The notes under the pieces are model-generated. The model ran no database searches, was not told the origin of the DNA, and saw only the letters and a list, made by a program, of their open reading frames with translations. Source: a virus (lineage: Duplodnaviria; Caudoviricetes). From it: a stretch of DNA of 64,000 bases. Position numbers and translations under genes: made by a program. The stretch lies in the IMG/VR virus record IMGVR_UViG_3300044656_000027, positions 32,001 to 96,000 of that record; one strand, 5' to 3'. Below, piece after piece: positions 39,603 to 52,110 of the stretch (positions are counted from its first letter, which is position 1; each line of letters begins with the position of its first letter).

Positions 39603-40739
39603 TTACTCTGCGGTAGGCTTGATGATATCCCAAATTGTACTTGAAATATCCTTACCATCTAGCAAAAGAAACATAATTCCAGGGTGCGTAAGGTTTGCGT
39701 CCTTGACTGCAAGAGCAAAATCCTTACGAGTAAAATCTCTAGGAAGAGAGCTTACGATGCCGTCATAAAACAAAGTCTTCAAGATGAAGACCTTACGGTC
39801 ATAGTGATCCTGCAATTCCTTGTAAGTCTCCTGCAACCACGCGTGCCACTCATCCGGAACGATCTCAAGCAAGTCCGCAAGAGTCTTACCATCCTTCATG
39901 TTCTCCCAGACGCGCCGCTTGGTCAAACCTGTGACAACACGGTGCAGAGCAACGTAATCATCCTGCTTCACCTTGATACGGTAGTCAAGGTTCGGAAAGT
40001 AGACCACGTAACCCTCTGCATTAGCCCGTGGAGGGCACTCCAGCGCCTCTCTAAGCGTCTTGTAGGGAAAGACCTTGGTCTGCTCCCCATACCACTCGTA
40101 TTGGCTCGGAGAGAGCCGTACAAGCCCTGTGGAAAGGTTACGCGCACCTAGCCACGTAAGTCCCTTACGGTCACCGTAGTTGACGACGATTCGGTTCTCA
40201 GGGTAGATGATCTCTACCATGTATGTCCAGTTAGGATCAAGCAGACCTGTGTGCTGCTCCGCAAGCTTGCGCCCCATTACAGCCTGATCCGAATCGTAGG
40301 AACCCCGAGTGATAAGGGTCCACTTAGGCTCCCAAGGAGCGTAGTAAACAGCCGGAACAGAACGAACTGGGGTAGGGTCATGCCATCGGTCCTCAGGGAA
40401 CTGCTGGTTGTAACAGAAGAGGATACCAAGAGACCCGTCCATCTTGTCAGAGACGTGGACTGGCTCATCCATAAGCTGCTTGTCATCCTCAGACAGGTTC
40501 ATGAACTTGTCGAAAGGACGAGCCAGGACATTCCAGTTCTCATCAATTACAAGACCACGGCACTGCTTAGTTACCTCGTTCCACAGGTTATCGAACTGCG
40601 CCTTCTCGGTATACCCCAAAATTCTAAAAGTCTTCTTGTGCAAGTAGCTTACTTCAAGAGTAAACTCATTAACCCGAATATACTTCTCTCGAACCATTTG
40701 ACGGTAAAGATCCATATCCATCAAGTCCCAGAGCTTCAC
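39603..40739 (-). CDS. RNA ligase (T4 Rnl1-like)
   Basis: CRGLV, ARPFDKF.N, motif I KMDGSLG, TRGS, EII.P.NRIVV.Y, EGYVV, RIKVK; GTG start after GAGGAGG. Confidence 0.9.
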   Translation of the reverse strand: MKLWDLMDMDLYRQMVREKYIRVNEFTLEVSYLHKKTFRILGYTEKAQFDNLWNEVTKQCRGLVIDENWNVLARPFDKFMNLSEDDKQLMDEPVHVSDKMDGSLGILFCYNQQFPEDRWHDPTPVRSVPAVYYAPWEPKWTLITRGSYDSDQAVMGRKLAEQHTGLLDPNWTYMVEIIYPENRIVVNYGDRKGLTWLGARNLSTGLVRLSPSQYEWYGEQTKVFPYKTLREALECPPRANAEGYVVYFPNLDYRIKVKQDDYVALHRVVTGLTKRRVWENMKDGKTLADLLEIVPDEWHAWLQETYKELQDHYDRKVFILKTLFYDGIVSSLPRDFTRKDFALAVKDANLTHPGIMFLLLDGKDISSTIWDIIKPTAE

Positions 40740-41151
40740 GATTTGCCTCCTCCTCATAGGTTTCTAGAATCTCACGCGCCCAAGCTACCAGGTCTTCAAC
40801 CCTTTGTCCAAGAGGTTGCTTAGTTACCCAAAGTTCTAGATTTTCAAGACGATTGTCGTCTCGTACGCCATTCTTATGGTGCACATTCTCCCCTTTTCGA
40901 AGGGGTCTGTCAAGGTGTCTAGACATCACTAGCACATGCTCTAAAATAGTTCCATTTGCTTGTGCATTTGGATGTTCAGGAGCGTATACACGTCTATAAC
41001 CTTGCTCAGTAGTTGTGCCAGCTCCGTTAGCCGCACGTCGTCTCACGGGGCGTAGTTCTTGACCTTTAGACTGTTGCCAATAGTGTGCCCCACACAGTCC
41101 GCGTCCTGTCACTTTGCCTCCACAATCAGGGAAGCTGCATGTCTTCTTCAT
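40669..41151 (-). CDS. HNH homing endonuclease
   Basis: N-terminal C..C...C..H, EHVLVM...VHHKNGVRDDNRLENLELW. Confidence 0.9.
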   Translation of the reverse strand: MKKTCSFPDCGGKVTGRGLCGAHYWQQSKGQELRPVRRRAANGAGTTTEQGYRRVYAPEHPNAQANGTILEHVLVMSRHLDRPLRKGENVHHKNGVRDDNRLENLELWVTKQPLGQRVEDLVAWAREILETYEEEANREALGLDGYGSLPSNGSREVYSG

Positions 41152-41158
41152 AAACTTA

Positions 41159-41188
41159 ATTGTAGCATAGTTTAGATTCTAGTGTAAA
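41159..41188 (-). promoter_or_regulatory. leaderless promoter of HNH gene
   Basis: TTTACA-N18-TACAAT with extended TG, 7 nt to ATG. Confidence 0.55.
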
Positions 41189-41219
41189 AGAAAACCCCTG
41201 TCAAGAGACAGAGGCTTTC
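41186..41219 (-). terminator. terminator at 3' end of tRNA array
   Basis: AAAGCCTCTGTC...GACAGGGGTTTTCTTTT. Confidence 0.65.
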
Positions 41220-41226
41220 AGTGGAG

Positions 41227-41308
41227 TGGGTAGAGAGGGACTTGAACCCCCAGATCCGAAGAACGGGTTTTACAGACCCGCGCGCTACCAATTACGCTTT
41301 ACCTACCC
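41227..41308 (-). tRNA. tRNA-Tyr(GTA)
   Basis: Cloverleaf; CGGGT-CTGTAAA-ACCCG; long variable arm. Confidence 0.9.
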
Positions 41309-41309
41309 A

Positions 41310-41384
41310 TGGGGTGACCAACGGGGATCGAACCCGCGATACTTGAGTCACAGTCAAGCGTGTTACCGCTACACCATGGCCACC
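41310..41384 (-). tRNA. tRNA-His(GTG), G-1 and CCA encoded
   Basis: CTTGA-CTGTGAC-TCAAG. Confidence 0.92.
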
Positions 41385-41393
41385 ATGTGAAAG

Positions 41394-41464
41394 AGGGAAG
41401 CTAGGGACTCGAACCCTAAATGGCGGGGACACAATCCGCTATGTTACCGTTACATTAGCGACCC
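41394..41464 (-). tRNA. degenerate tRNA-like gene, GTG anticodon
   Basis: D and T arms intact; two acceptor mismatches; loop TTGTGTC. Confidence 0.55.
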
Positions 41465-41470
41465 ATAGAC

Positions 41471-41500
41471 ACTATATCGGATTGGAACAGTAAGTGTCAA
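41471..41500 (-). promoter_or_regulatory. internal tRNA-array promoter
   Basis: TTGACA-N18-TATAGT just upstream of 41464. Confidence 0.6.
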
Positions 41501-41501
41501 G

Positions 41502-41573
41502 TACGAACACCAAGAATTGAACTTGAAATTAGACTTTATCAGAGTCTCGTGATAACCGTTTCACCATGCTCGC
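41502..41573 (-). tRNA. tRNA-Ile(GAT)
   Basis: AGACT-CTGATAA-AGTCT. Confidence 0.85.
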
Positions 41574-41578
41574 ATTAT

Positions 41579-41887
41579 TTAAATATCCTCTAGCATGCGC
41601 TTAATGAAGCTCTTTGGCTTAGCTCCAACTGCATACTTAATGATACTGCCTTCGCGGAACAAAAGCAAGGTTGGTATAGATGAGATGTCGTACTTCTTAG
41701 TGAGGTTAGGATTCTCATCTGCGTTTACCTTGATGACCTTGAGCCAGTCGTTCTCTTCTGAGATAGACTCTAGCACAGGTGCCATCATCTTGCAAGGACC
41801 ACACCACTCAGCCCAGAAGTCAACTAATACGTACTTGTTATCAGCAATTACTGAATCGAATGTTATTTCTGATACTGCCTGCATCAT
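41579..41887 (-). CDS. trxA: thioredoxin
   Basis: LVDFWAEWCGPCK...SIPTL. Confidence 0.95.
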   Translation of the reverse strand: MMQAVSEITFDSVIADNKYVLVDFWAEWCGPCKMMAPVLESISEENDWLKVIKVNADENPNLTKKYDISSIPTLLLFREGSIIKYAVGAKPKSFIKRMLEDI

Positions 41888-41899
41888 CTCTCCTTTACG

Positions 41900-41972
41900 T
41901 AGGGCATAGAGGAATTGAACCTCTTATCGTTGGGATATAAGCCCACTGCATCGACCGTTATGCTAATGCCCC
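41900..41972 (-). tRNA. tRNA-Ile(TAT)
   Basis: TGGG-CTTATAT-CCCA; acceptor GGGGCAT/ATGCCCT. Confidence 0.8.
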
Positions 41973-42084
41973 AAAGCCCTGTCGCACATTCTCCGACTCT
42001 CTATGTAACCTCATTCGGACTACTGTGAGACTTCTCTACTAACCCTCGTTACACAGGGTGTTTGATGGCTCGGACTAGCCAAAG

Positions 42085-42168
42085 CGGAGGATGAGGGATT
42101 CGAACCCCCACGGCTTTTACACCGTATTGTTTTCAAGACAACTCCACGCCACCGATGTTAGATCCTCC
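42085..42168 (-). tRNA. tRNA-Ser(TGA)
   Basis: GTTGT-CTTGAAA-ACAAT; long variable arm; weak D arm. Confidence 0.8.
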
Positions 42169-42214
42169 ATGTGATAAGCCTTTTGGTTAGTAGGGCGCTT
42201 ATCTAATCCCTAAG

Positions 42215-42302
42215 CGGAGATAGAGGGATTCGAACCCTCGGGGCGATTTGAATACCCGCTGCCTTTCCAAGACAGTGCACTAGACCTCTATGCGATATCT
42301 CC
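42215..42302 (-). tRNA. tRNA-Ser(GGA)
   Basis: CTGTC-TTGGAAA-GGCAG; long variable arm. Confidence 0.88.
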
Positions 42303-42311
42303 ATTATTTAA

Positions 42312-42416
42312 TTAGCGTGGATCAGGATTCTTTGTTCCACACTTTGGGCAATACAGATTTCTCTTATCAGAAGGCATATAGCACTTTGGACAATAGAAGA
42401 TACTTCCACCAGACAT
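42312..42416 (-). CDS. 34-aa zinc-ribbon microprotein
   Basis: MSGGSIFYCPKCYMPSDKRNLYCPKCGTKNPDPR; TAATG-coupled. Confidence 0.75.
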   Translation of the reverse strand: MSGGSIFYCPKCYMPSDKRNLYCPKCGTKNPDPR

Positions 42417-42499
42417 TATCGTGCCACCTTGCAGTTATAGCAGTGACCGTACTTGTCCATGTTGATGTGACCACAATACTTACACTTCCAAAAGCTCAC
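42416..42499 (-). CDS. 27-aa RanBP2-type zinc-finger microprotein
   Basis: MSFWKCKYCGHINMDKYGHCYNCKVAR; GTGA-coupled. Confidence 0.75.
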   Translation of the reverse strand: MSFWKCKYCGHINMDKYGHCYNCKVAR

Positions 42500-42588
42500 T
42501 TTGGCTTACCCTTCATCCATCGACAGTGCCAGCACTTTGCTTTTGCTTCATTGTTGTACGAGCCGCAGTTATTGCATTTCCAACCCAT
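42496..42588 (-). CDS. 30-aa RanBP2-type zinc-finger microprotein
   Basis: MGWKCNNCGSYNNEAKAKCWHCRWMKGKPK; GGAGG RBS. Confidence 0.8.
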   Translation of the reverse strand: MGWKCNNCGSYNNEAKAKCWHCRWMKGKPK

Positions 42589-42601
42589 AATATCCTCCAA
42601 G

Positions 42602-42681
42602 CGGAAGGAGGAGGATTCGAACCCCCAGCTATTCACTGAACGGTTTAGCAAACCGTCTGCCAGACCCCTGACTCACCTTCC
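42602..42681 (-). tRNA. tRNA-Ser(GCT)
   Basis: ACGGT-TTGCTAA-ACCGT. Confidence 0.82.
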
Positions 42682-42685
42682 AAAG

Positions 42686-42762
42686 AGCGCAGCAGGAGAA
42701 TCGAACTCCAAACCAATCGCTTTGCAGGCGATCCCCAGACCATCCGAGTTAGGACACTGCGC
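42686..42762 (-). tRNA. tRNA-Cys(GCA), atypical enlarged D region
   Basis: ATCGC-CTGCAAA-GCGAT; U73. Confidence 0.75.
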
Positions 42763-42767
42763 ATAAG

Positions 42768-42847
42768 TGGAGCTGCGGGGATTCGAACCCCGGTGCTGAT
42801 AACTTCCGACATGCGGTTTTAATCACCAGACGAAACCAACCAGCCCC
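42768..42847 (-). ncRNA. mini-tmRNA: tRNA-like domain only
   Basis: GGGGCTG-GTTGGTTTCGTC 5' end, G3:U70, A73, canonical T arm, short helix 2 capped by GCATGTCG; no tag reading frame. Confidence 0.75.
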
Positions 42848-42944
42848 ATTGTGTCTGGCCTCATACGGGCTATTACCAGACTTGAAGTGCCCAGAGCCCG
42901 CACTTAGGGCTACTGTCCCGTAAAGGAATCTCGTCAGATTCCAG

Positions 42945-43015
42945 TACCCAGTGAGGGAATCGAACCCCCGCATGTGGTGTGTAAAACCACTGGTCTCCCA
43001 TTAACCTAACCGGGC
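42945..43015 (-). tRNA. tRNA-Val(TAC)
   Basis: GTGGT-TTTACAC-ACCAC. Confidence 0.88.
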
Positions 43016-43047
43016 AGGTAGAAGAACCGAAGTTCTTCTAGTATAGC

Positions 43048-43254
43048 TTAACTGCGATAGGCGATAAAGTCAACCGGCACGCTTTCCTCAACTCCATCGT
43101 GCCATCTGACATCTACGCAAGTGGTTCCCATCCAGTCGTACTCAGGGCAAAGAGTAACGCCTGAGTGATTACGACGAGAACCATTCCTACCAACAACATT
43201 GATCCCTCGGAAGTTGGAAGGTGCTTCCTTCTTCTTACGACCAAACAGACCCAC
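43048..43254 (-). CDS. hypothetical protein
   Basis: 68 aa, GGGGG RBS, GTG start. Confidence 0.65.
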   Translation of the reverse strand: MGLFGRKKKEAPSNFRGINVVGRNGSRRNHSGVTLCPEYDWMGTTCVDVRWHDGVEESVPVDFIAYRS

Positions 43255-43286
43255 TGTGTTCCCCTTCGTTAGTTGGTGTGTCTATC

Positions 43287-43565
43287 TTAGACCAGGTAGG
43301 ACCAAGTGTCAACACTACCGTCAGTGCGCTTGAGGCTAATGGATCGATTGACCTCACCCTCCTCAAACGTCCAAGCCATCAGACGCAGGTGGTACTCAGT
43401 GTCAAGGTGCTGGGGAAGACCCATCTCCTCAAGCTCACACAGAGCCTCCATCGTCTTAGCCACGTTGTAAGCGGCAACGGCAAAGCTCTCAACAGGAACC
43501 GTAGAGCTCTTCTTAAAGCCGTCCTTGGACTCGACATCAATAGTGAGTGTAGCCATTTTGTGCAT
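43287..43565 (-). CDS. hypothetical protein
   Basis: 92-aa ORF between tRNAs. Confidence 0.65.
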   Translation of the reverse strand: MHKMATLTIDVESKDGFKKSSTVPVESFAVAAYNVAKTMEALCELEEMGLPQHLDTEYHLRLMAWTFEEGEVNRSISLKRTDGSVDTWSYLV

Positions 43566-43587
43566 CCCTTCGATTGATACTATGACG

Positions 43588-43660
43588 TACCCTAGACAGG
43601 ATTCGAACCTGCATTGAACAGCTTAGAAGGCTGGTGAGTTATCCGTTACTCTACTAGGGC
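43588..43660 (-). tRNA. tRNA-Arg(TCT)
   Basis: CAGC-CTTCTAA-GCTG. Confidence 0.88.
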
Positions 43661-43687
43661 AAGAGGGACCGAAGTCCCGGATACTGC

Positions 43688-44242
43688 TTAGTCCCACCAC
43701 ATAGCCTTAGCATATAGTGGATTCTCTTCTATGTCAACGTCCCACCAGTTATCAACCTCAGCCCAACGCCAGATCGTTCCCCAGTCGTCGTATCCATTAG
43801 GTACTTCGATAGCAGAATTTGGATCAGTGTCAGCATGGTGTCCCATGTAGTTAATAGCCTGCTTGAGTTGCTGCTTGACGTTGTGTCTGCGAGCCTGACT
43901 TACAGCCTTCTTAGCGCCGTGTCGTGGCCAACCGTAGCCTATATCAGTTGCGTAGTATTTGCAACCATCACGCCAACGATTGTGCGTATGTGTCATTGGC
44001 TCATCAATATTACAAGGAACTTCCTCAGTCCAACGATCCCAGACGTGAACGGATTCTTGACGCTCTGGAATCTTGTAGTAACGCATTTCATCCCAATCCC
44101 AAACATACTTGGAAGGGATGGTAGTTACATCCGTACGAACATACTCTCTTCGATGACGCAGATGATTATGGACAGCCTCACGGCGTTCCTTAGAGTCATT
44201 AGAGCGAACCCAGTAAGGACGATCCTTGCGAGTGCGGGACAT
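43688..44242 (-). CDS. hypothetical basic protein (MSRT-x-K N-terminus)
   Basis: 184 aa, AAGGAG RBS. Confidence 0.75.
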   Translation of the reverse strand: MSRTRKDRPYWVRSNDSKERREAVHNHLRHRREYVRTDVTTIPSKYVWDWDEMRYYKIPERQESVHVWDRWTEEVPCNIDEPMTHTHNRWRDGCKYYATDIGYGWPRHGAKKAVSQARRHNVKQQLKQAINYMGHHADTDPNSAIEVPNGYDDWGTIWRWAEVDNWWDVDIEENPLYAKAMWWD

Positions 44243-44353
44243 ATTTACTCCCTTGTTAGTGCTAAAGCAAATGCCAGTATTTAGAGGAACTGGCTGGCCT
44301 CCCGTTCATTGAGACTTTCTAGGGTGTGTTTCAGAACGGCTTAGATATCCCTG

Positions 44354-44429
44354 CACGGATGACAGGAGTTGAACCTGCATGTGTCCTTTAACCTTTCTAC
44401 GCGTTCGTAGCGCGAGGGTATACATCCGC
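44354..44429 (-). tRNA. atypical rewired tRNA-Arg(ACG)-like RNA
   Basis: Acceptor GCGGATG/CATCCGT and T arm intact, no D arm; CGCG-CTACGAA-CGCG hairpin followed by long linker with TAAAGG. Confidence 0.65.
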
Positions 44430-44840
44430 ATTAAGTTGCCACCAATTAAACTGTCTGGCAGTTCTGTATCTGTGACATTTGACACAACGAATATCGCACT
44501 TAGCGATCTCAGTTTGTAAAACTTCTAAACTAAGCTTTCGCTTAATACCATCCGCTATATTAAAACTTTTGGTTTCTGGATCTCGATGATCAAAGTCCAG
44601 AAGGACTATATCAGACTCGCCACAATCTATACAGGGATTCTGATCATAGTAATTTACTAAGTAAGTTCTAACCTTTACTAGGTACTTCTCATCATTACGC
44701 CGTGCCTTAGCCAAGTAGCTTTGCTTATTAGCTTGATAATGCTCACGAGTATACTTACGATGACAAGGCTTACACATTGCACTCTTAGTTGCGAACTCTT
44801 CTTTGGCCAACTCTTGGTTGCACCTACTACATGTTTTCAT
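44397..44840 (-). CDS. HNH homing endonuclease
   Basis: CSRC...CKPC; CIDCGE.D...LDFDH.D....EIAKCDIRC..CHR. Confidence 0.88.
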   Translation of the reverse strand: MKTCSRCNQELAKEEFATKSAMCKPCHRKYTREHYQANKQSYLAKARRNDEKYLVKVRTYLVNYYDQNPCIDCGESDIVLLDFDHRDPETKSFNIADGIKRKLSLEVLQTEIAKCDIRCVKCHRYRTARQFNWWQLNADVYPRATNA

Positions 44841-44860
44841 GCTACTAATTATAGCATAGG

Positions 44861-44898
44861 TTCGTAGGCAAGTGCTCTATCCGTTGAGCTATAGCACC
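44861..44898 (-). pseudogene. 5' half of conventional tRNA-Arg(ACG), truncated after the anticodon loop
   Basis: GGTGCTATAGCTCAACGGATAGAGCACTTGCCTACGAA then unrelated HNH promoter sequence. Confidence 0.75.
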
Positions 44899-44906
44899 AT
44901 ACTTTG

Positions 44907-45410
44907 TTACTTCTTTAAACTTAGCAGATAATCTCTTATAGCACCAGGACTTGTCAAGTATGCTGGCTTGTTAGACAGCTTGGAACCCGCCAAATCGTAA
45001 TCCTCAGCACAGAGTTGAGAGCAGATCAAGTGCTTGCTGTTAAGAACTCTAGCAGAGATCCAAGGAAGAGGCAAGTGCAGTCTCTTCGTGAAAATCGCAA
45101 AGTAATCCAGGAAACTGTATGGTGTGCCAATCTGATTGGTTGCTAGAGTAACGATAGTCACTCTTTGCTGAGCTGTCAAATCAATCAGACCAGAGGACCA
45201 CAGGATCTCTCGTCCATCGTACTTCGACAAGTTAGTTCTGATAGCACCACCAGGTTGAGCTTCTACGATCTCACCATTACCAATGTAAATGAAGGCATGC
45301 TCATAGTTGGAGAAGCCATCTCCGTTAAGCCACTGGCCTAAGCGAATCAGCTTGCCCACAGTACCGTTGATACTTACTAAGCCTACATCACCTGGTAATA
45401 GTTCCGCCAC
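44907..45410 (-). CDS. permuted papain-like NlpC/P60 (YiiX/YaeF-like) amidase
   Basis: PGD...HAFIY.GNG.IVEA...IGTPY...ICSQL. Confidence 0.82.
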   Translation of the reverse strand: MAELLPGDVGLVSINGTVGKLIRLGQWLNGDGFSNYEHAFIYIGNGEIVEAQPGGAIRTNLSKYDGREILWSSGLIDLTAQQRVTIVTLATNQIGTPYSFLDYFAIFTKRLHLPLPWISARVLNSKHLICSQLCAEDYDLAGSKLSNKPAYLTSPGAIRDYLLSLKK

Positions 45411-45540
45411 TACACTTCTCCTTGTGCTTAAAGAATGCTTTCTCTGCTTCACCCTCAGAGTCAAATGGACCCTCAGAATGCCTACCAGTAGCGCACTCGT
45501 GAGTAAACTTCCACTTACCTGGTCTATGTTGAATGACCAT
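45388..45540 (-). CDS. 50-aa hypothetical protein
   Basis: MVIQHRPGKW..., GGAGG RBS right after tRNA-Lys. Confidence 0.6.
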   Translation of the reverse strand: MVIQHRPGKWKFTHECATGRHSEGPFDSEGEAEKAFFKHKEKCSGGTITR

Positions 45541-45555
45541 CTTTCCTCCTTTACG

Positions 45556-45628
45556 TACCCCCAGTGGGACTCGAACCCACACCACGCGGATTAAAAGTCC
45601 GCTGCATTAACCGTTGTGCTATAGGGGC
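45556..45628 (-). tRNA. tRNA-Lys(TTT)
   Basis: GCGGA-CTTTTAA-TCCGC. Confidence 0.92.
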
Positions 45629-45652
45629 ATAGGGCCGAAGCCCTCTTTCGAA

Positions 45653-46087
45653 TTACTTACCAGTGCCAGCCTGAGCAGTAATGGTAGGAATACCACCCTG
45701 ACCAGAAGGAACGTAAACAACAGTGTTGTTCTTGCCAGACTCAGCGATACGCTCAAGAGCCTGAGTCATCTCGTACTGAACGTAGATGGGAGTCAGAGTC
45801 TTAGCGATCTCATCCTGAGCCTCACGGACACCAATGGCGTCCTGGAGACGAATCTCAGCCTGCTGCTTAGCAATCTGAACTCGCTGCGCCTGATTCTGGA
45901 TCTCAATGTTAGAGACCTCAACCTGGTTATTCGCAGCAATAATATTCGCCTGAGCCTTGTTCTTAGCATCCTGGATATTCTGGTATCGACCAAAAGCCTG
46001 GAAACCCGCAATGGCACCCATGAAGATACCGATTACAAGAGCCAGACCAAGAATCGCAGCAACACCCTTGCCCAGAATCTCAGACAT
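45653..46087 (-). CDS. membrane-anchored coiled-coil protein (SPFH/band-7 C-terminal-like)
   Basis: N-terminal TM, AEIR..AIG..AQ..I..TLTP.Y.QY...VVYVP...GIP. Confidence 0.7.
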   Translation of the reverse strand: MSEILGKGVAAILGLALVIGIFMGAIAGFQAFGRYQNIQDAKNKAQANIIAANNQVEVSNIEIQNQAQRVQIAKQQAEIRLQDAIGVREAQDEIAKTLTPIYVQYEMTQALERIAESGKNNTVVYVPSGQGGIPTITAQAGTGK

Positions 46088-46136
46088 TTAGTTATTCTCC
46101 TTCTTAATACTCCGAGTACCGATCTAATGATCGGAG

Positions 46137-46210
46137 AGCCCACTATGGGATTCGAACCCATGACCTCTTCATTACCAATGAAGTGCTCTGCCAGGCTGAG
46201 CTAAGAGGGC
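46137..46210 (-). tRNA. tRNA-Thr(GGT)
   Basis: CTTCA-TTGGTAA-TGAAG. Confidence 0.92.
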
Positions 46211-46317
46211 AAAACAAGATTGAGATCGGGACGCCGAACTTGTCACTTCCCAGCGATACTGCCTGCATACAGTTCAATCTCTGGAACTCATCTAAGCGCT
46301 TAGAGTGTTGTTCGTTG

Positions 46318-46389
46318 TACTCCGCCAGGGACTTGAACCCTGATCCATGGATTAAGAGTCCATTGCATCACCATTAATGCTTGCGAAGC
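46318..46389 (-). tRNA. tRNA-Lys(CTT)
   Basis: ATGGA-CTCTTAA-TCCAT. Confidence 0.88.
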
Positions 46390-46418
46390 ATAAGGCTCCT
46401 ATTGGAGCCCGTTTTACG

Positions 46419-46724
46419 TTACTTACCAAAGAGCCAACGTGCAAGACCCTTTGTCTCTCGATAAGGCTCGTTCTCCTGGTATCCTCCACCGAAAGTGCTC
46501 TCATACGCAAGACGCTCAGCAGAAACCTGTGCGTGACCCTCAGGAGTTAAAGGGGTACCACGAGAGAACTCCTTGCGCATACCGTCCTTGGAGGTATACT
46601 CGTTCACCTTGAAGTTAGGTGCTGGAGTATCGGAACCATCGTCCTTAAGATACTTATCGTAATAAGCATCGTAATGAACTCCGAGCTTCTTCTGCTCCTT
46701 AGGCGTAAGCCACTTCTCAGGCAT
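46419..46724 (-). CDS. hypothetical protein
   Basis: 101 aa, GGAGG RBS. Confidence 0.7.
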   Translation of the reverse strand: MPEKWLTPKEQKKLGVHYDAYYDKYLKDDGSDTPAPNFKVNEYTSKDGMRKEFSRGTPLTPEGHAQVSAERLAYESTFGGGYQENEPYRETKGLARWLFGK

Positions 46725-46758
46725 AAGGTTTTGCCTCCCTTATATTGGTTATAAAACG

Positions 46759-46830
46759 TGGAGCCACGGGGAATCGAACCCCGAACTTCGGATTGCAAAA
46801 CCGATGTGTTTCCGTTAGCACCATGGCCCC
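46759..46830 (-). tRNA. tRNA-Ala(TGC)
   Basis: G3:U70; loop TTTGCAA. Confidence 0.9.
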
Positions 46831-46892
46831 AGTGTTCTCATCTAGTGTACCACACTCTAGATGAAATAAAAAGCCCAACTTAATGGGCTAAG

Positions 46893-46964
46893 CTCTCACA
46901 GCTGGATTCGAACCAACAACCTTGGAGTTAACAGCTCCCTGCTCTGCCATTGAGCTATGCGAGA
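46893..46964 (-). tRNA. tRNA-Asn(GTT)
   Basis: GGAG-CTGTTAA-CTCC. Confidence 0.9.
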
Positions 46965-47035
46965 ATAAGCCTCAACCACTAGGGAAGAGGTGGTGTATGT
47001 TGTTTATCTTAGCAAACTCTCGTTAGAGAGTCAAG

Positions 47036-47106
47036 CAGGCCACCCAGGAGTCGAACCCGGCCGAATTGGGTTGGAACCAATCATGCTTCCGATACATCAG
47101 TGGCCT
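47036..47106 (-). tRNA. tRNA-Trp(CCA)
   Basis: ATTGG-TTCCAAC-CCAAT. Confidence 0.88.
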
Positions 47107-47152
47107 ATATGGTTCCGTTGTTTCCCACGCACAACGGTTTCCTAAAAGCTCG

Positions 47153-47225
47153 TAGCGCCCGTCGGATTCGAACCGACACTGATTAGTTCCTAAGACTAAT
47201 GCCTCTGCCATTGGGCTAGAGCGCC
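47153..47225 (-). tRNA. tRNA-Leu(TAG), short variable arm
   Basis: TTAGT-CTTAGGA-ACTAA. Confidence 0.88.
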
Positions 47226-47265
47226 ATACGCACTCAGTGGCCAAAGCGGGTGAGTGCTTGTGTTA

Positions 47266-47709
47266 CTAGCTTATCAGATTATGAACGTAATGGGAAGCTT
47301 CATAGTCTGACGCTGATGCATTGTGGATGCCTCCGTGTCCTCTGTGGTGCTTAGCACACAGGAACATGAAGTTCTCTTCTGATTCTACCCAAGCGCCCAC
47401 TTCATTAGGATCAGAGATCCCAGGGAAGTCCTGCTCTAGGTACTTCAAGTCTACACCCTGCTGCATGCTGAATTCAACATGGCTGTGGTGTAGCTCCAGA
47501 CCTCCAGCACACTCGGAAGTATCTCCGCCACGACGTAATGCGAATTCGCATACAGCGTCCTTGACGTGAGTCTTACGATAGTGCTCAAAGTCACGATAAT
47601 GTGGATCATCCTTTCTAGCTGGATGAGCCGGAAATGCTACTGTGTAATGCTTAGTTTCAGCTTGTGTATGCGCTTCTACTACCTTACCCATACTGGCCCT
47701 ATCTGTCAA
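47266..47709 (-). CDS. hypothetical protein with HNH-like Cys/His pattern
   Basis: C...C...LELHH...N...LCAKHH.....IH. Confidence 0.65.
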   Translation of the reverse strand: MTDRASMGKVVEAHTQAETKHYTVAFPAHPARKDDPHYRDFEHYRKTHVKDAVCEFALRRGGDTSECAGGLELHHSHVEFSMQQGVDLKYLEQDFPGISDPNEVGAWVESEENFMFLCAKHHRGHGGIHNASASDYEASHYVHNLIS

Positions 47710-48287
47710 TAGCCCTTAGGTGGGCGTGTTGGATCAAATTGCTGAACCTTGGCAGCTAGGTCATGTCCATCTCTGGATACTCCATAGAACTGTACCACAT
47801 AGTTCATAGCCGCACAAGTGTTGGCTACGGCATCGTAAATGTCATATGACGTTCCAAGTTGGTGATACTTTGCAAAGGTTGGTGGAATACATTGTAGAAC
47901 ACCACGAGAACAATTTGCAGGATGACCATCAGCAACGATAGGTCCAGTAGCGTTTAGATCATAAGTGTTTACTGCGTTAAAGTCATAACTGCTTTCACGG
48001 TTGGCCGCAGTAACAAGTCCAGTCTTCCAATAACTCTGTGCTGTCGGATCAGTAATAGACATGATCTCGAATACCTTTGGCAGCACAGTAGAGGTAAAGG
48101 ATACAGAGTTGTCTACTAGGCCGTAACTAACAGCACCTACACTAATAGGAGAAGGTGTAAATCCAGTGTCTACTGATATTTCGATACTGTTCTTAGTCAG
48201 CTTAGTCTTAGTTGTTATACCGTTAACAGTAATAATTGCAGTGGCCCCAAGAGGCAATGTGCCGGATGTAAATAAGTGCTCTATCAT
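47706..48287 (-). CDS. lytic transglycosylase (SLT) domain protein
   Basis: RESS...AVN..D.N...SRGVLQ.IPPTF..YH...IYD.VAN..AA.NY...YG. Confidence 0.85.
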   Translation of the reverse strand: MIEHLFTSGTLPLGATAIITVNGITTKTKLTKNSIEISVDTGFTPSPISVGAVSYGLVDNSVSFTSTVLPKVFEIMSITDPTAQSYWKTGLVTAANRESSYDFNAVNTYDLNATGPIVADGHPANCSRGVLQCIPPTFAKYHQLGTSYDIYDAVANTCAAMNYVVQFYGVSRDGHDLAAKVQQFDPTRPPKGY

Positions 48288-48288
48288 A

Positions 48289-48633
48289 TTATTCCAATTC
48301 AGTAATCGGTATCCAGCCCTTGCCCTCACGGCCCTCTACTAGAAGGTTACGAGGCTCCATGTCTCTGGCTACTCTGTCTTCAACCTTCTCAAGCCCATGA
48401 AGGGTCCTGTGTGTCCATATGCGGAACTTTGAGGACTCTGCCATACGTCTGAATGCCAAACGCTTGTTGATCAGCTGAGAGCGCTCCTCACGGCTTTCAC
48501 CTACAGCACCGGAAGGCTTATGAATTACTCTTACGCCCGTTTCGCGCTTATTCTGATTCTGACCACCCTTTCCTCCTGAACGGAAGGTTTGGACCTCACA
48601 ATCATGAATAGTCACGCTAAATGCTTTTTCCAT
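48289..48633 (-). CDS. stand-alone GGQ peptide chain release factor domain (RF-1/ArfB/PrfH-like)
   Basis: [26 protein letters not shown]......ERSQ..NK..A. Confidence 0.9.
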
Positions 48634-48634
48634 G

Positions 48635-48708
48635 TAGTCCTACTCGGATTCGAACCGAGAACCTTCACATTTTGAGTGTGACGCCTCTGCCAATTGGGCT
48701 ACAGGACC
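48635..48708 (-). tRNA. tRNA-Leu(CAA), short variable arm
   Basis: TCACA-CTCAAAA-TGTGA. Confidence 0.88.
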
Positions 48709-48761
48709 ATTTCTGCCCCCGATGGGCCTTGTGCACTGGAATTTCCAGGATCGGGGTAAAG

Positions 48762-48835
48762 TAGTCCTTGTCGGACTCGAACCGACACCTGAACAGGGTT
48801 TAAGCCTGTTGCCTCTTCCATTGGGCTAAAGGACC
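48762..48835 (-). tRNA. tRNA-Leu(TAA), short variable arm
   Basis: ACAGG-CTTAAAC-CCTGT. Confidence 0.88.
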
Positions 48836-48843
48836 ATAATGTG

Positions 48844-48914
48844 AGCCCTGCGAAGGAATTGAACCCTCATTTGCGCATTACGAAAGCGCTGTTCTGCCGT
48901 TTAACTAGCAGGGC
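48844..48914 (-). tRNA. tRNA-Thr(CGT)
   Basis: GCGC(T)-TTCGTAA-(T)GCGC. Confidence 0.85.
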
Positions 48915-48915
48915 A

Positions 48916-49081
48916 ATGTGGATAGTTGGATTCGATGATTACCAACAAGGCATTTCCTACGTCATACAGTAAATACCTACCATCCCTTTGGGTGCTACCC
49001 AAGACCGCTAAGTCAGGATGTGCGTTCGACCCATAGGCGAGTCTTTTCCGCCATATCCGGTCAGCATGATCAGTGCCGACT
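48916..49081 (-). ncRNA. candidate structured ncRNA between two tRNA-Thr genes
   Basis: Six or more short helices visible; no convincing ORF seen. Confidence 0.35.
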
Positions 49082-49084
49082 TTG

Positions 49085-49157
49085 AGCCCCCAGTCGGATT
49101 CGAACCGACGACCTACGCTTTACAAGAGCGTTGCTCTGGCCTCTGAGCTATAAGGGC
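49085..49157 (-). tRNA. tRNA-Thr(TGT)
   Basis: ACGCT-CTTGTAA-AGCGT. Confidence 0.92.
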
Positions 49158-49199
49158 ATAGGGAGTCTCCGGAAGGAGGAAACAGAGACTCCCAGTATA

Positions 49200-49493
49200 T
49201 TAGGCAGTTCCCGTAGCGGTAACTACCCAGTCTGTGTTTGCGTTCAGAGTAAAGTCAATTGGCTTGCTGAACGCGTTACCAGTTAGGTAAACAGTCCAAA
49301 GACCGTCAGTAGCACCAGCACCAGGAGCGTTAACTGCCTGCTGAATTGACGCAACTGTTGGATATCCCAGTCCAGAACCAGACGCAGGAGCGGTTTGCAC
49401 GTAGCAGTGACCATCTGCGGCTGCTGCAAGAACAACCTGAGTACCCACAGTCAAAGCATTAACTCTGATTGGAGCATTGTAAGTAATTGCCAT
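49200..49493 (-). CDS. hypothetical virion-like small protein
   Basis: MAITYNAP..., Ala/Gly/Thr-rich, composition like structural genes. Confidence 0.65.
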   Translation of the reverse strand: MAITYNAPIRVNALTVGTQVVLAAAADGHCYVQTAPASGSGLGYPTVASIQQAVNAPGAGATDGLWTVYLTGNAFSKPIDFTLNANTDWVVTATGTA

Positions 49494-49562
49494 AAGTGGC
49501 ACCTTTCATGAAAGGGATTGAGCGCTATAGCATTCTCAATAATATCATGAAAGATTATTGTG

Positions 49563-49636
49563 CACCGAAGACGAGATTTGAACCCGCAAATACCCAGCTT
49601 GAAAGGCTGGTGACTCTACCATTCGTCCACTCCGGC
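49563..49636 (-). tRNA. tRNA-Glu(TTC)
   Basis: CCAGC-CTTTCAA-GCTGG. Confidence 0.88.
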
Positions 49637-49644
49637 AAGCGCAG

Positions 49645-49783
49645 AGATGACACCAACCCCTGCGGTTATTACATAGTATTTAATAGGCAGCCTATCTCTT
49701 TTCGGCTAGCGGGAGGACAGGTAGCCCTTTAGCTCAGGCTTCCAACTCTTCCTTTATCCCTAGAGACCTATTATGGTGTCTTA
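49645..49783 (-). ncRNA. candidate structured ncRNA between two tRNA-Glu genes
   Basis: Closing helix GACACCA/TGGTGTC, inner TAATAGG/CCTATTA and hairpins. Confidence 0.35.
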
Positions 49784-49785
49784 CG

Positions 49786-49859
49786 TACTCCGTACGGGAT
49801 TCGAACCCGTATTCTCCCGGTTGAGAGCCGGGTGAGATGTCCTATTACTCTAACGGAGC
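49786..49859 (-). tRNA. tRNA-Glu(CTC)
   Basis: CCCGG-CTCTCAA-CCGGG. Confidence 0.88.
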
Positions 49860-49905
49860 ATACATCTCCTTGGTTGGCGAAGGAGATGGTTCCTCAATGT
49901 ACGCG

Positions 49906-49978
49906 CGCCCCTGACGGGATTCGAACCCGCCCTTGCACCTTGACAGGGTACCGTGCTACTCCCATACACTACAGGGGC
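49906..49978 (-). tRNA. tRNA-Asp(GTC)
   Basis: GTACC-CTGTCAA-GGTGC. Confidence 0.9.
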
Positions 49979-49984
49979 TTTTAT

Positions 49985-50443
49985 TTACACCATCTTAAAA
50001 GCTGCCGTACGCATGGCTTCTGCGAACTCCGTGTCAGGAAGTTTCTTGGCGTCTTGTGGTGCTTCTACATTACCAGTGAACACATCGTATGTCAACTCAC
50101 GTGTGTACTTGTTAGCGATCTTCTCCATCTGAACATACATGTCATTCAGCATGTTCATCATGTCGTTCTGCGCTCTCTGTGATAGAGACCTTATACCATC
50201 CTGGCGTCCTCTGTCAACAGCAGCCTTGGTGTCCGCAGCAAACTCAGGTGTGTGAATTAGCGCGTCATTTTCGTTGTAGAGCTCTCGAATCTTCTTCTCA
50301 GTCTCAGATAGCTTCTGACGTAGCGTAAGCGCCTCAGACTGCCATCTAGCCATGCCTAAGCGTGCTTCCTCAAGCTCCCACTTGGTGTCCTTGAGTTCAT
50401 CTGACACAAGGGACAACGCGTTTCTAATTGCGGACTTCTTCAT
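49985..50443 (-). CDS. coiled-coil hypothetical protein
   Basis: 152 aa, AGGAG RBS. Confidence 0.7.
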   Translation of the reverse strand: MKKSAIRNALSLVSDELKDTKWELEEARLGMARWQSEALTLRQKLSETEKKIRELYNENDALIHTPEFAADTKAAVDRGRQDGIRSLSQRAQNDMMNMLNDMYVQMEKIANKYTRELTYDVFTGNVEAPQDAKKLPDTEFAEAMRTAAFKMV

Positions 50444-50527
50444 TATATTCTCCTAGTTATTATCACAATGTAGTGACAGTATATCAGAGAATAGAAAAAG
50501 CCCCTGTAATACAACAGGGGCCTTAAG

Positions 50528-50818
50528 TTACTCAGCAGGCCAAGTAATGTTTGGTCGTTGAAACTTAACTCTGCCATTTCTTACAATGGCACGTTCAATA
50601 TCTGGGGATTCCTCACCATAGCGAATCATAATCAGATACTTATCTGGATACTGGTACGCGATCTGCTGTAAATCCTCGTCCCAGTTATACCACTTAGCGC
50701 TATACATGCAACCATCGTCATCCCAAGACGGACCATAATTGCCTGTATTAGCAGCAAGGACATCCTTAATATCAGGAATGTCCGTGTCTACAGTTTCAAA
50801 ATTTGAGTAATATCCCAT
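50528..50818 (-). CDS. hypothetical protein
   Basis: MGYYSNF...AKWY.W..D...YP......GEE; GGAGG RBS; hairpin terminator 50492-50524 follows. Confidence 0.75.
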   Translation of the reverse strand: MGYYSNFETVDTDIPDIKDVLAANTGNYGPSWDDDGCMYSAKWYNWDEDLQQIAYQYPDKYLIMIRYGEESPDIERAIVRNGRVKFQRPNITWPAE

Positions 50819-50941
50819 TCTTACCTCCTACGTAAGTGGTCTTCCCGTAGTCAGTGTGCACCTGACTTTTCCCGTACGTTCCTGCTGCTAGCTAGCGTTC
50901 ACGTCTGTAGAGTGTTGTATCCCAGTTAAGGGACGGGGGCG

Positions 50942-51012
50942 CTGGGGCGCAGAGATTCGAACTCCGATAGGCTGATCCAAAGTCAGCAGTCCTGCCATTA
51001 GACGAAACCCCA
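50942..51012 (-). tRNA. tRNA-Gln(TTG)
   Basis: GCTGA-CTTTGGA-TCAGC. Confidence 0.88.
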
Positions 51013-51028
51013 TTAAATTTGCTGCAAG

Positions 51029-51099
51029 CTCCCCGACATGGATTCGAACCACGATTTCTTCGTCCAGAGCGAAGCGTGCTGCCCTTACACCATCAGGGA
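51029..51099 (-). tRNA. tRNA-Gln(CTG)
   Basis: CTTCG-CTCTGGA-CGAAG. Confidence 0.9.
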
Positions 51100-51137
51100 A
51101 TAAGTGCCCTGCTATTGCTAGCTGTTTATGGGCTAAG

Positions 51138-51210
51138 TACCGTATAGGAGACTCGAACTCCTTCGTTCACTTTGGAAGAGTGACATGCTGCCATTAAACA
51201 TCAATACGGC
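51138..51210 (-). tRNA. tRNA-Gly(TCC)
   Basis: TCACT-CTTCCAA-AGTGA. Confidence 0.88.
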
Positions 51211-51287
51211 ATTGCTTGTAGTCAGGCGGTTCTTTCAGGTTCTACAAGCTCCTCTGTCGCTACATATCGCAGCAACCGCCAGGAAAC

Positions 51288-51683
51288 TTAGTAATCGTCG
51301 TGAGATTCGTCTTCATCCCATTCAGGAACACACCAACCGCAATCACACCAGTCTTCGTAGTATTCCTCTTCCTCTTCGTCCTCATAACCAATCAAAGTTA
51401 CTACAGGACCCGCAGAGGTTACATCTACGTCAACAATACGGTCAGAACCATCCTGAACCTCAGCAGATACTCCCCAACCCGTTTCAGAACCATATTCAGC
51501 CTTCATAAGCTCCTCAATGAGGATACGAGTCAGATATGGAGTATCGTACTTGCGATTAAGTGCTCTTCCGACGCTTAGACCTGTCATAACCATTGCTGGC
51601 AGGTCCGACCCATTCCAGTGAGTGTAAATGTACACACCTGGACGATTTCCTTCATGAATGTATACGTTAGCTCTATCTCCCAT
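51288..51683 (-). CDS. hypothetical protein with acidic tail
   Basis: MGDRANV...VYIYTHW.G motif; leaderless start. Confidence 0.75.
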   Translation of the reverse strand: MGDRANVYIHEGNRPGVYIYTHWNGSDLPAMVMTGLSVGRALNRKYDTPYLTRILIEELMKAEYGSETGWGVSAEVQDGSDRIVDVDVTSAGPVVTLIGYEDEEEEEYYEDWCDCGWCVPEWDEDESHDDY

Positions 51684-51690
51684 GTGAGAG

Positions 51691-51719
51691 ACTGTACTAC
51701 ATTCACTTGAAGATGTCAA
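51691..51719 (-). promoter_or_regulatory. leaderless promoter
   Basis: TTGACA-N17-TACAGT, 7 nt to ATG 51683. Confidence 0.65.
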
Positions 51720-51720
51720 G

Positions 51721-51804
51721 TGGTAGCGGAGGCGGGATTTGAACCTCTTTGTGCGATCTCTAGCTTATGAGGCTAGCGAGATGACCTAGCTTCTCTACTC
51801 CGCG
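51721..51804 (-). tRNA. initiator-like tRNA-Met(CAT) with T-stem insertion, CCA encoded
   Basis: C1:U72 mismatch, CTAGC-CTCATAA-GCTAG, extra ACAAAG in T stem. Confidence 0.7.
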
Positions 51805-51806
51805 AG

Positions 51807-51878
51807 TACCGGGAGTGGGAATCGAACCCACGACGACAAGGTTATGAATCTTGCGTTCTACCATTGAACTATCCCGGC
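51807..51878 (-). tRNA. tRNA-Met(CAT)
   Basis: CAAG(A)-TTCATAA-(C)CTTG. Confidence 0.85.
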
Positions 51879-51888
51879 AAAAGATATG

Positions 51889-51961
51889 TGCCGCCTGTAG
51901 GACTCGAACCTACGACCTGTCGGGCTTCAACCGACCGCTCTTCCAACTGAGCTAAAGCGGC
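51889..51961 (-). tRNA. tRNA-Phe(GAA)
   Basis: GTCGG-TTGAAGC-CCGAC. Confidence 0.92.
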
Positions 51962-52035
51962 AATACGAGTAATTACTATGTTTAGTACCCTAGTCCATTA
52001 TATTTAGCGGTATTTACTAGTCTATTACTCAAACT

Positions 52036-52110
52036 TGGTCGTCTTTGTGGGGCTGGACCCACTCCTCTGCCCTCCCACGGACAGTGTGCAACCGGTTACA
52101 CCATTAGACG
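52036..52110 (-). tRNA. atypical tRNA-Pro-like gene (8-nt anticodon loop, non-canonical T loop, CCA encoded)
   Basis: C1-G72, A73, CTGTC-CGTGGGAG-GGCAG, T loop TCCAGC. Confidence 0.55.

What the first reader, a model, noticed from the sequence alone, without database searches (positions are those of the whole stretch)
44354..44429. Rewired tRNA-Arg(ACG): anticodon hairpin first, D-loop-like segment after it
Reads GCGGATG TA TACCCT CGCG-CTACGAA-CGCG TAGAAAGGT TAAAGG ACACAT GCAGG-TTCAACT-CCTGT CATCCGT G (76 nt, normal tRNA length). Acceptor stem, U8-A9, 7-nt anticodon loop and T arm are canonical, but there is no D arm. ACC(C)T can extend the anticodon helix with AGGT, and a D-loop-like TAAAGG sits where the variable loop should be. 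It looks like a topologically permuted tRNA that could still form an L-shape. It is the only full-length CGN-reading candidate in the array.
Basis: partly seen in the sequence, partly recalled or inferred. Interest (0 to 1): 0.78.

Follow-up and report, generated by a model that had tools for sequence, protein, structure and literature searches.

The report
Rewired non-cloverleaf phage arginine tRNA
This 76-base phage gene is very probably a working arginine tRNA that lacks the usual D hairpin: the anticodon arm sits inside a short helix and the D-loop follows it, a plan shared by well over a hundred phage genes that gene finders miss.

Summary
The gene is not a chance look-alike or a decayed tRNA.

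All helices covary: acceptor, T stem, anticodon stem, and a 3-bp outer helix (ACC/GGU) that encloses the anticodon arm in place of a D stem. The GG after that helix covaries perfectly with T-loop positions 55-56. The next base tracks the anticodon (A in Arg, U in Ile). Only Arg and Ile anticodons (plus CAU) occur.

Rewired and ordinary genes for the same anticodon are nearly mutually exclusive in phage tRNA arrays. In this complete 111-kb phage the gene is the only CGN reader.

Locally, an HNH endonuclease gene has cut off the ordinary tRNA-Arg(ACG) after its anticodon loop, and its own end lies inside the rewired gene. Similar remnants recur with another nuclease lineage.

No RNA or charging data exist. 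I found no paper on this. This scan has noted the same family before on other DNA.

The parts
44423..44429 (-). acceptor stem, 5' strand (RNA positions 1-7)
   Evidence: Pairs 7/7 with 44355-44361. All 7 pairs covary in the family.
44420..44422 (-). U8 A9 U10, invariant linker
   Evidence: Invariant in 80 of 80 sequences of A1.
44417..44419 (-). outer (D-stem-like) helix, 5' strand ACC (positions 11-13)
   Evidence: Pairs with 44391-44393. All 3 pairs change on both sides in divergent members, 96% paired.
44399..44415 (-). anticodon arm (positions 15-31): U.U plus 4 Watson-Crick pairs, loop CUACGAA, anticodon ACG at 44406-44408
   Evidence: The 4 pairs covary. The U.U position is a standard pair in the 7 sequences where it differs. 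The loop has U33 and A37.
44394..44398 (-). linker N-GAAA (positions 32-36); GAAA is invariant in the main class
   Evidence: Its role (stacking or docking between the two helices) is inferred.
44391..44393 (-). outer helix, 3' strand GGU (positions 37-39)
   Evidence: See the 5' strand.
44379..44390 (-). relocated D-loop-like segment UAA-A-GG-A-C-ACAU (positions 40-51). GG at 44385-44386 is equivalent to G18 G19. A at 44384 is equivalent to A20.
   Evidence: GG with T-loop UC in 93 sequences, GA with UU in 6, AG with GC in 3. The base after GG is A in 57/58 Arg and U in 41/42 Ile members.
44362..44378 (-). T arm (positions 52-68), loop UUCAACU
   Evidence: 4 of 5 pairs covary; the loop matches the UUCRANY consensus.
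44354..44361 (-). acceptor stem 3' strand and discriminator G (positions 69-76); no encoded CCA
   Evidence: At most 3 of the 32 ordinary tRNAs of this phage show a CCA near the 3' end, so a missing CCA is normal here. About 30 of 80 family members elsewhere are followed by CCA.
44397..44840 (-). HNH homing-endonuclease gene (147 aa). Its last 11 codons and its stop codon lie inside the tRNA gene.
   Evidence: ORF. PHROG 2255 HNH endonuclease, E 9e-33. Homologues lie directly 5' of rewired tRNAs in other loci.
44861..44898 (-). orphan 5' part (38 nt) of an ordinary tRNA-Arg(ACG): acceptor strand, full D arm, anticodon-stem 5' strand and loop CUACGAA, then broken off
   Evidence: Read. The same remnant is present in the syntenic relative L097. 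Comparable remnants occur upstream of a different nuclease in L038 and L071.

Best explanation
The gene encodes a genuine tRNA-Arg(ACG) of a phage-specific family whose D domain is re-ordered. Shown by comparative analysis: a normal 7-bp acceptor stem and 5-bp T arm; a 5-position anticodon stem (U.U plus 4 pairs) with a normal 7-nt loop; that arm nested inside a 3-bp helix (11-13 with 37-39) in the place of the D stem; and, after that helix, a D-loop-like strand whose GG contacts T-loop positions 55-56 as G18 and G19 do in ordinary tRNAs. Inferred: the two stacked helices give an anticodon limb of about normal length, so the molecule forms an L-shape. Also inferred: RNase P cuts the RNA out, the host adds CCA, ArgRS charges it using the A that follows GG (equivalent to A20) and C35, TadA converts A34 to inosine, and it then reads CGU, CGC and CGA. 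Those codons are 65% of this phage's arginine codons. Locally, an HNH homing-endonuclease gene destroyed the ordinary tRNA-Arg(ACG) gene, and the rewired gene directly behind it is the surviving copy. In the family at large the rewired gene stands in for the ordinary gene of the same anticodon.
For: Structure. On 80 distinct members, 99.1% of cells are paired and 0 of 500 shuffles reach the observed covariation score; slid controls give 32-45% paired. On 48 members that include divergent ones, the outer helix shows AU 27/CG 16/UA 2/GC 1, CG 38/GC 5/AU 1/UA 1 and CG 37/GC 3/AU 1. RNAalifold predicts the same fold on its own.

Elbow. GG/UC 93, GA/UU 6, AG/GC 3, with no exceptions.

Identity. The base after GG is A in 57/58 Arg and U in 41/42 Ile members. 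The discriminator is A in 42/42 Ile members. A20 as the main ArgRS determinant and A73 in tRNA-Ile are established knowledge for E. coli. Mutual information ranks the anticodon against this base just below the helices.

tRNA-gene behaviour. 132 of 158 elements have an ordinary tRNA within 1 kb. About 30 of 80 are followed by CCA.

Slot-filling. In arrays with at least 5 ordinary tRNAs, an ordinary ACG gene is present in 2/43 loci that have a rewired ACG and in 22/54 loci that do not (p = 3e-5). For GAU the figures are 6/42 and 28/55 (p = 2e-4).

This genome. It is complete at 111 kb, with 32 ordinary tRNAs for all 20 amino acids. The only ordinary Arg tRNA is UCU. CGU, CGC and CGA make up 35%, 19% and 11% of Arg codons.

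Local history.
Against: The L-shape is inferred, not modelled. The loci are related to one another and partial, so the exclusivity p-values and covariation counts overstate independent events. Alignment A2 was fitted to the model. The main class was collected with a pattern that fixes the core, so its invariance is partly by construction; variation was seen only in members that the covariance model added. The host tRNA-Arg(ACG) could cover CGN codons, so the gene need not be essential.
Confidence: 0.72

Rival explanations
1. A tRNA-like RNA that is made but not used in translation, for example a decoy or sponge for host anticodon nucleases or other tRNA-targeting defences, or a processing signal for the nuclease mRNA.
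For: Phage tRNA arrays sit next to RNA-repair genes: RNA ligase and RtcB in A3Wally and Zooman, and an RlaP-family nucleotidyltransferase next to the Ile member in Streptomyces phages. Defences that cut tRNAs are documented (PMC10264068, PMC13096335). No charging data exist.
Against: A decoy needs only the nuclease's target. Here synthetase identity elements track the anticodon (A after GG in Arg, U plus A73 in Ile). The 12-bp acceptor/T branch needed by EF-Tu is intact. CCA is often encoded. The gene replaces rather than accompanies the ordinary gene of the same anticodon.
Confidence: 0.12
2. The conservation is at the DNA level only. The invariant core would be a homing site or immunity determinant of selfish endonuclease genes, and the RNA has no role.
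For: About a fifth of elements have a nuclease gene directly 5' (HNH, endonuclease VII, DUF559, SegE-like GIY-YIG, HTH type), often overlapping the tRNA gene. Truncated ordinary tRNA genes lie upstream.
Against: Compensatory changes in four helices and in a loop-loop contact are selection on RNA pairing, not on a protein-binding DNA site. Most elements have no adjacent nuclease gene.
Confidence: 0.05
3. The rewired gene is the 3' part of a split or intron-containing tRNA whose 5' part is the upstream remnant, with the HNH gene as intron cargo.
For: The upstream remnant stops right after the same anticodon loop sequence, and the nuclease gene lies between the two. Group I introns in bacterial tRNA-Arg and tRNA-Ile anticodon loops are known (established knowledge).
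Against: The remnant's acceptor strand is not complementary to the 3' end of the rewired gene, which pairs 7/7 with its own 5' strand. No intron family matched 40500-53000 even at E up to 10. Most family members stand alone between other tRNAs.
Confidence: 0.03
4. A decaying pseudogene of an ordinary tRNA-Arg.
For: It scores below Rfam's tRNA threshold and is missed by ARAGORN.
Against: The same layout occurs in more than 100 distinct sequences from unrelated phages, with 98-99% of helix cells paired.
Confidence: 0.02

Closest known systems
Ordinary class I bacterial and phage tRNA-Arg(ACG) (Rfam RF00005), e.g. the gene at L149 2018-2092 of Microbacterium phage A3Wally or E. coli tRNA-Arg2
   Same: 7-bp acceptor stem, U8 A9, 7-nt anticodon loop CUACGAA (identical to the E. 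coli tRNA-Arg2 loop as I recall it, not checked here), 5-bp T arm with a UUCRANY loop, GG to T-loop contact, an A after GG, overall length 76 nt.
   Different: There is no D hairpin between position 9 and the anticodon arm. The helix that replaces the D stem encloses the anticodon arm, so the strand order is reversed. The D-loop equivalent follows the anticodon arm where the variable loop should be. It scores under Rfam's gathering score.
D-armless mitochondrial tRNAs (e.g. mammalian mt-tRNA-Ser(AGY), nematode and mite mt-tRNAs; PMC4394434, PMC2797822)
   Same: No D hairpin, and an extended anticodon limb.
   Different: Those are shortened molecules that have lost the D-loop/T-loop contact and work with adapted organellar machinery. 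This one keeps full length, a consensus T loop and a covarying GG to 55-56 contact, and must work with ordinary bacterial machinery.
allo-tRNAs and (8/4) tRNA-Ser/His of bacteria and phages (Mukai et al., PMC5389517)
   Same: Unusual tRNA architectures found by mining genomes and metagenomes, some of them in phage tRNA clusters.
   Different: Those change the split of the 12-bp acceptor/T branch (8/4 or 9/3) but remain cloverleaves with a D hairpin. Here the branch is a normal 7/5 and the D domain is re-ordered.
Free-standing homing endonucleases in phage tRNA clusters (T4 SegB, PMC2330249)
   Same: A nuclease gene lies within a tRNA array, next to or inside tRNA genes, and drives inheritance of the neighbouring tRNA region.
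   Different: Here the nuclease gene has truncated an ordinary tRNA gene and is fused to a structurally different tRNA gene with the same anticodon. Cleavage specificity was not tested.

Membership tests
tRNA, canonical cloverleaf (Rfam RF00005) | 7-bp acceptor stem with unpaired discriminator | tested here: met
   7/7 pairs in the window gene. All 7 pairs covary.
tRNA, canonical cloverleaf (Rfam RF00005) | T arm: 5-bp stem and 7-nt UUCRANY loop | tested here: met
tRNA, canonical cloverleaf (Rfam RF00005) | Anticodon arm: 5-bp stem, 7-nt loop with U33 and purine 37 | tested here: met
   Four Watson-Crick pairs plus U.U at the 27:43 position. That position is a standard pair in the 7 sequences where it differs.
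tRNA, canonical cloverleaf (Rfam RF00005) | D hairpin between position 9 and the anticodon arm | tested here: not met
   Only 6 nt lie there. Rfam aligns 4 nt against 15 model positions.
tRNA, canonical cloverleaf (Rfam RF00005) | Score at or above Rfam's gathering threshold (29 bits) | tested here: not met
   27.1 bits.
tRNA, canonical cloverleaf (Rfam RF00005) | G18 G19 contact with T-loop 55-56 (elbow) | tested here: met
   Present, but from a relocated strand. Covariation holds in 102/102 sequences and in the column pair 46/63.
tRNA, canonical cloverleaf (Rfam RF00005) | Aminoacylation and use on the ribosome | not testable with these tools
   Only indirect evidence: identity nucleotides track the anticodon and the gene fills the isoacceptor slot.
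Rewired phage Arg/Ile tRNA family (model R1 built here) | Full-length match to the family covariance model, well separated from ordinary tRNAs | tested here: met
   85.8 bits, against at most 27.4 bits for ordinary tRNAs. The window sequence was in the training set, but its Streptomyces and Microbacterium phage relatives score alike.
Rewired phage Arg/Ile tRNA family (model R1 built here) | Outer helix 11-13:37-39 enclosing the anticodon arm, followed by UAA-N(0-2)-GG | tested here: met
D-armless mitochondrial tRNAs | Shortened molecule with loss of the D-loop/T-loop interaction, in an organelle genome | tested here: not met
   76 nt, consensus T loop, elbow contact kept, in a phage genome.
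Permuted tRNA genes (Cyanidioschyzon type) | The gene begins inside the tRNA, and the 3' and 5' halves are joined through a circular intermediate to give an ordinary tRNA | tested here: not met
   The acceptor 5' and 3' strands are at the two ends of the gene and pair directly.
Intron-containing bacterial tRNA (group I intron in the anticodon loop) | Group I intron core between two complementary tRNA halves | tested here: not met
   No intron family matched. The halves are not complementary.

The most novel reading that the evidence does not exclude
Phages that infect many bacterial phyla use a class of translationally active tRNAs that are not cloverleaves: the D stem is re-threaded around the anticodon arm and the D-loop is moved behind it. 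These genes would spread, at least in part, as the immune 'spare part' of homing-endonuclease cassettes that cut and destroy the ordinary tRNA gene of the same anticodon.
Probability: 0.45. Interest if true: 0.9.

Novelty: new variant of a known kind. Interest (0 to 1): 0.8.

Why it matters
tRNAs that work with bacterial ribosomes, synthetases, EF-Tu and RNase P are taken to be cloverleaves. A widespread natural class with a re-ordered D domain would show how much of that plan is really required. It would give a new scaffold for engineered or orthogonal tRNAs. It would also expose a blind spot in annotation: these genes are unannotated or misnamed in nearly all the Streptomyces and Microbacterium phage records I looked at, so tRNA counts and codon-coverage analyses of phages are biased for Arg and Ile. 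The link with nuclease genes suggests a way for a selfish element to destroy an essential small gene while carrying a replacement. Cultured phages carry the family (Mildred21, Persimmon, EGole, A3Wally, Zooman), so it can be tested directly.

Tried and rejected
ARAGORN in bacterial and mitochondrial mode does not call the gene, nor any family member in 150 loci.

Pfam gave nothing for the local nuclease ORF; PHROGs identified it as HNH.

Eight of the 23 pattern matches in prokaryote genomes were not tRNA-like, look like coding sequence, and were discarded.

A mutual-information scan for further tertiary contacts found only the helices and the link between the anticodon and the base after GG.

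The promoter and terminator scan of the locus was uninformative.

The intron or split-gene reading was rejected.

The 5' remnant in L097 is not independent evidence, because L097 is syntenic with the window.

Eight full-text searches for a description of such tRNAs in phages found nothing relevant. Subscription-only papers were not searched.

I ran no control for how often nuclease genes sit 5' of ordinary tRNAs in the same arrays, so enrichment at rewired genes is not established.

Full report
**The observation**

Its parts are a 7-bp acceptor stem, U8 A9, six bases (UACCCU), a 4-bp hairpin with the loop CUACGAA, 21 further bases, a 5-bp T stem with the loop UUCAACU, the acceptor 3' strand and a discriminator G.

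Rfam's tRNA model matches end to end at 27.1 bits, under its threshold of 29. It does so only by deleting the D arm and inserting 17 bases in the variable region. ARAGORN finds 32 ordinary tRNAs on the same strand at 41.2-52.2 kb but not this gene, and its mitochondrial mode misses it too.

**The gene has many relatives**

- blastn found the same element, unannotated, in Streptomyces phages Mildred21, Braelyn, Navo, Persimmon and WhereRU.
- A paralogue with anticodon GAU occurs in about 40 more Streptomyces phage genomes, directly behind a nucleotidyltransferase gene. It is annotated in one phage (EGole, two database records), and wrongly, as tRNA-Leu.
- A slightly looser pattern matched only 23 places in 596 Gb of prokaryote genomes. 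Fifteen of these are true members, all on MAG contigs.
- Microbacterium phages A3Wally and Zooman and a 462-kb uncultured phage also carry it.

The family is therefore essentially viral and spans phages of very different hosts.

**Structure**

I aligned 80 distinct members (A1).
- The acceptor, anticodon and T stems are paired in 99.1% of cells.
- 16 of the 20 tested pairs change on both sides.
- No shuffle out of 500 reaches the observed covariation score, and slid controls give 32-45% paired.

In this first set the segments flanking the anticodon hairpin are invariant, but the search pattern had fixed them. I therefore built a covariance model (R1) and searched all loci with it. It separates the family (74-95 bits) from ordinary tRNAs (under 28 bits in the window) and adds divergent members at 35-85 bits.

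In those divergent members the proposed helix 11-13 with 37-39 changes by compensation. ACC/GGU becomes CCC/GGG, CCG/CGG, CUC/GAG, CAC/GUG, CGG/CCG or CAG/CUG. On 48 sequences all three pairs change on both sides, with 96% paired. RNAalifold predicts the same fold unaided.

The position next to the 4-bp hairpin (U15 facing U31) is U.U in the main class. It is a standard pair in all 7 sequences where it differs. The anticodon stem therefore has the normal five positions.

**The relocated D-loop**

After the 3' strand of the outer helix comes an invariant UAA, up to two bases, then GG. Where the second G is A, T-loop position 56 is U (6 sequences). Where the first G is A, position 55 is G (3 sequences). 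Otherwise the pairing is GG with UC (93 sequences). There are no exceptions (also columns 46/63). This is the signature of the G18-55 and G19-56 elbow contact, made here from a strand that lies behind the anticodon arm.

The next base is A in 57 of 58 Arg members and U in 41 of 42 Ile members. The discriminator is A in all 42 Ile members. A20 is the classical ArgRS determinant and A73 is typical of tRNA-Ile; I take both from established knowledge of E. coli. Only Arg anticodons (ACG, UCG, UCU, CCU), Ile anticodons (GAU, UAU) and CAU were seen. The two CAU members have the Ile features.

**Does it behave as a tRNA gene?**

- 132 of 158 elements have an ordinary tRNA within 1 kb.
- About 30 of 80 are followed by CCA.
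- In arrays with at least five ordinary tRNAs, an ordinary ACG gene accompanies a rewired ACG gene in 2 of 43 loci, but is present in 22 of 54 loci without one (p = 3e-5).
- For GAU the figures are 6 of 42 against 28 of 55 (p = 2e-4).

These loci are related and partial, so the p-values are generous, but the direction is clear: the rewired gene takes the slot of the ordinary one.

**This phage**

The window is bases 32001-96000 of a complete 111,289-bp IMG/VR phage genome with terminal repeats. Its 32 ordinary tRNAs cover all 20 amino acids, but for arginine only UCU is present. CGU, CGC and CGA, which an inosine-modified ACG anticodon reads, make up 65% of arginine codons in its long ORFs. 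At most 3 of the phage's 32 ordinary tRNAs show a CCA near the 3' end, so the missing CCA here means nothing.

**Local history**

- At 44898-44861 lies the first 38 nt of an ordinary tRNA-Arg(ACG): acceptor strand, complete D arm, anticodon-stem strand and the loop CUACGAA. It is then broken off.
- Twenty bases later an HNH endonuclease gene starts (44840-44397; PHROG 2255, E 9e-33). Its last 11 codons and its stop codon lie inside the rewired tRNA gene.
- The syntenic relative L097 has the same arrangement.
- A3Wally has ordinary ACG, then HNH, then rewired ACG. Zooman has the ordinary and rewired genes side by side. These look like the undamaged state.

Independently, a different nuclease lineage in L071, L038 and L062 is preceded by ordinary tRNA-Arg(ACG) remnants of various lengths and followed by a rewired ACG gene. 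Among 42 distinct upstream ORFs there are HNH, endonuclease VII, DUF559, SegE-like GIY-YIG and HTH proteins, several of which run into the tRNA gene.

I infer that homing-type nucleases attack ordinary tRNA genes and that the rewired gene survives or travels with them. Cleavage specificity is untested, and I did not run the control for ordinary tRNAs.

One further inference follows. Cutting the tRNA out of a joint transcript would remove the stop codon of the nuclease mRNA, which would limit nuclease expression.

**Comparison with what is known**

The gene works like a class I tRNA-Arg but fails two defining features of the cloverleaf family as modelled: the D hairpin and Rfam's threshold. It differs from D-armless mitochondrial tRNAs, which are shortened and have lost the elbow contact. 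It differs from allo-tRNAs, which alter the acceptor/T split but keep a D hairpin (PMC5389517). It differs from permuted tRNA genes, whose mature product is ordinary.

Eight full-text searches found no description of such tRNAs. Nucleases in phage tRNA clusters are known (SegB, PMC2330249).

Earlier notes of this scan describe the same family on other DNA. They are not independent evidence, and one records that part of the claim fell on a later check, without saying which part.

**Verdict**

The most likely explanation is a working, non-cloverleaf tRNA-Arg(ACG) (0.72). What is missing is any direct sight of the RNA, its charging or its fold.

Noticed in passing
window 44861-44898 (-): Orphan 38-nt 5' part of an ordinary tRNA-Arg(ACG), ending exactly after the anticodon loop and followed by an HNH gene. 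The same remnant is present in the relative L097. Comparable remnants lie upstream of another nuclease lineage in L038 and L071.
   Followed up: yes
window 44397-44429 (-): The HNH ORF's last 11 codons and its TAG stop lie inside the tRNA gene. RNase P processing of a joint transcript would leave the nuclease mRNA without a stop codon, a possible brake on nuclease expression. In other loci, nuclease ORFs end inside the tRNA in other frames.
   Followed up: partly
window 42765-42847 (-): An 83-nt RNA between tRNA-Cys and tRNA-Val matches only the two ends of Rfam's tmRNA model (58.2 bits, threshold 47). It has an acceptor stem and T arm like a tmRNA tRNA-like domain but no coding part. It may be a miniature tmRNA-like or another odd tRNA-like gene.
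   Followed up: partly
window 48915-49080 (-): Near-threshold match to the manA RNA motif (52.6 bits, threshold 55.2) between two tRNA-Thr genes.
   Followed up: no
L005 595-671; L004 1149-1224; about 40 Streptomyces phage records: The rewired tRNA-Ile(GAU) behind the RlaP-family nucleotidyltransferase gene is annotated as tRNA-Leu in EGole and not annotated in the others. Mildred21's rewired tRNA-Arg(UCG) is annotated as tRNA-Phe.
   Followed up: partly
L149 (Microbacterium phage A3Wally): The record's tRNA product names disagree with ARAGORN throughout. For example, the Arg(acg) gene is labelled Thr(acg) and Arg(ccg) is labelled Pro(ccg), as if the anticodon had been read as a codon.
   Followed up: partly
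L149 2018-2092; L150 2339-2411: The ordinary tRNA-Arg(ACG) genes of A3Wally and Zooman have G at loop position 37 (CUACGGA). Nearly all rewired ACG members have A37.
   Followed up: no
window 42685-42762 and 51721-51804 (-): ARAGORN's tRNA-Cys (78 nt, anticodon at position 38) and one tRNA-Met (84 nt) have unusual lengths for class I tRNAs.
   Followed up: no
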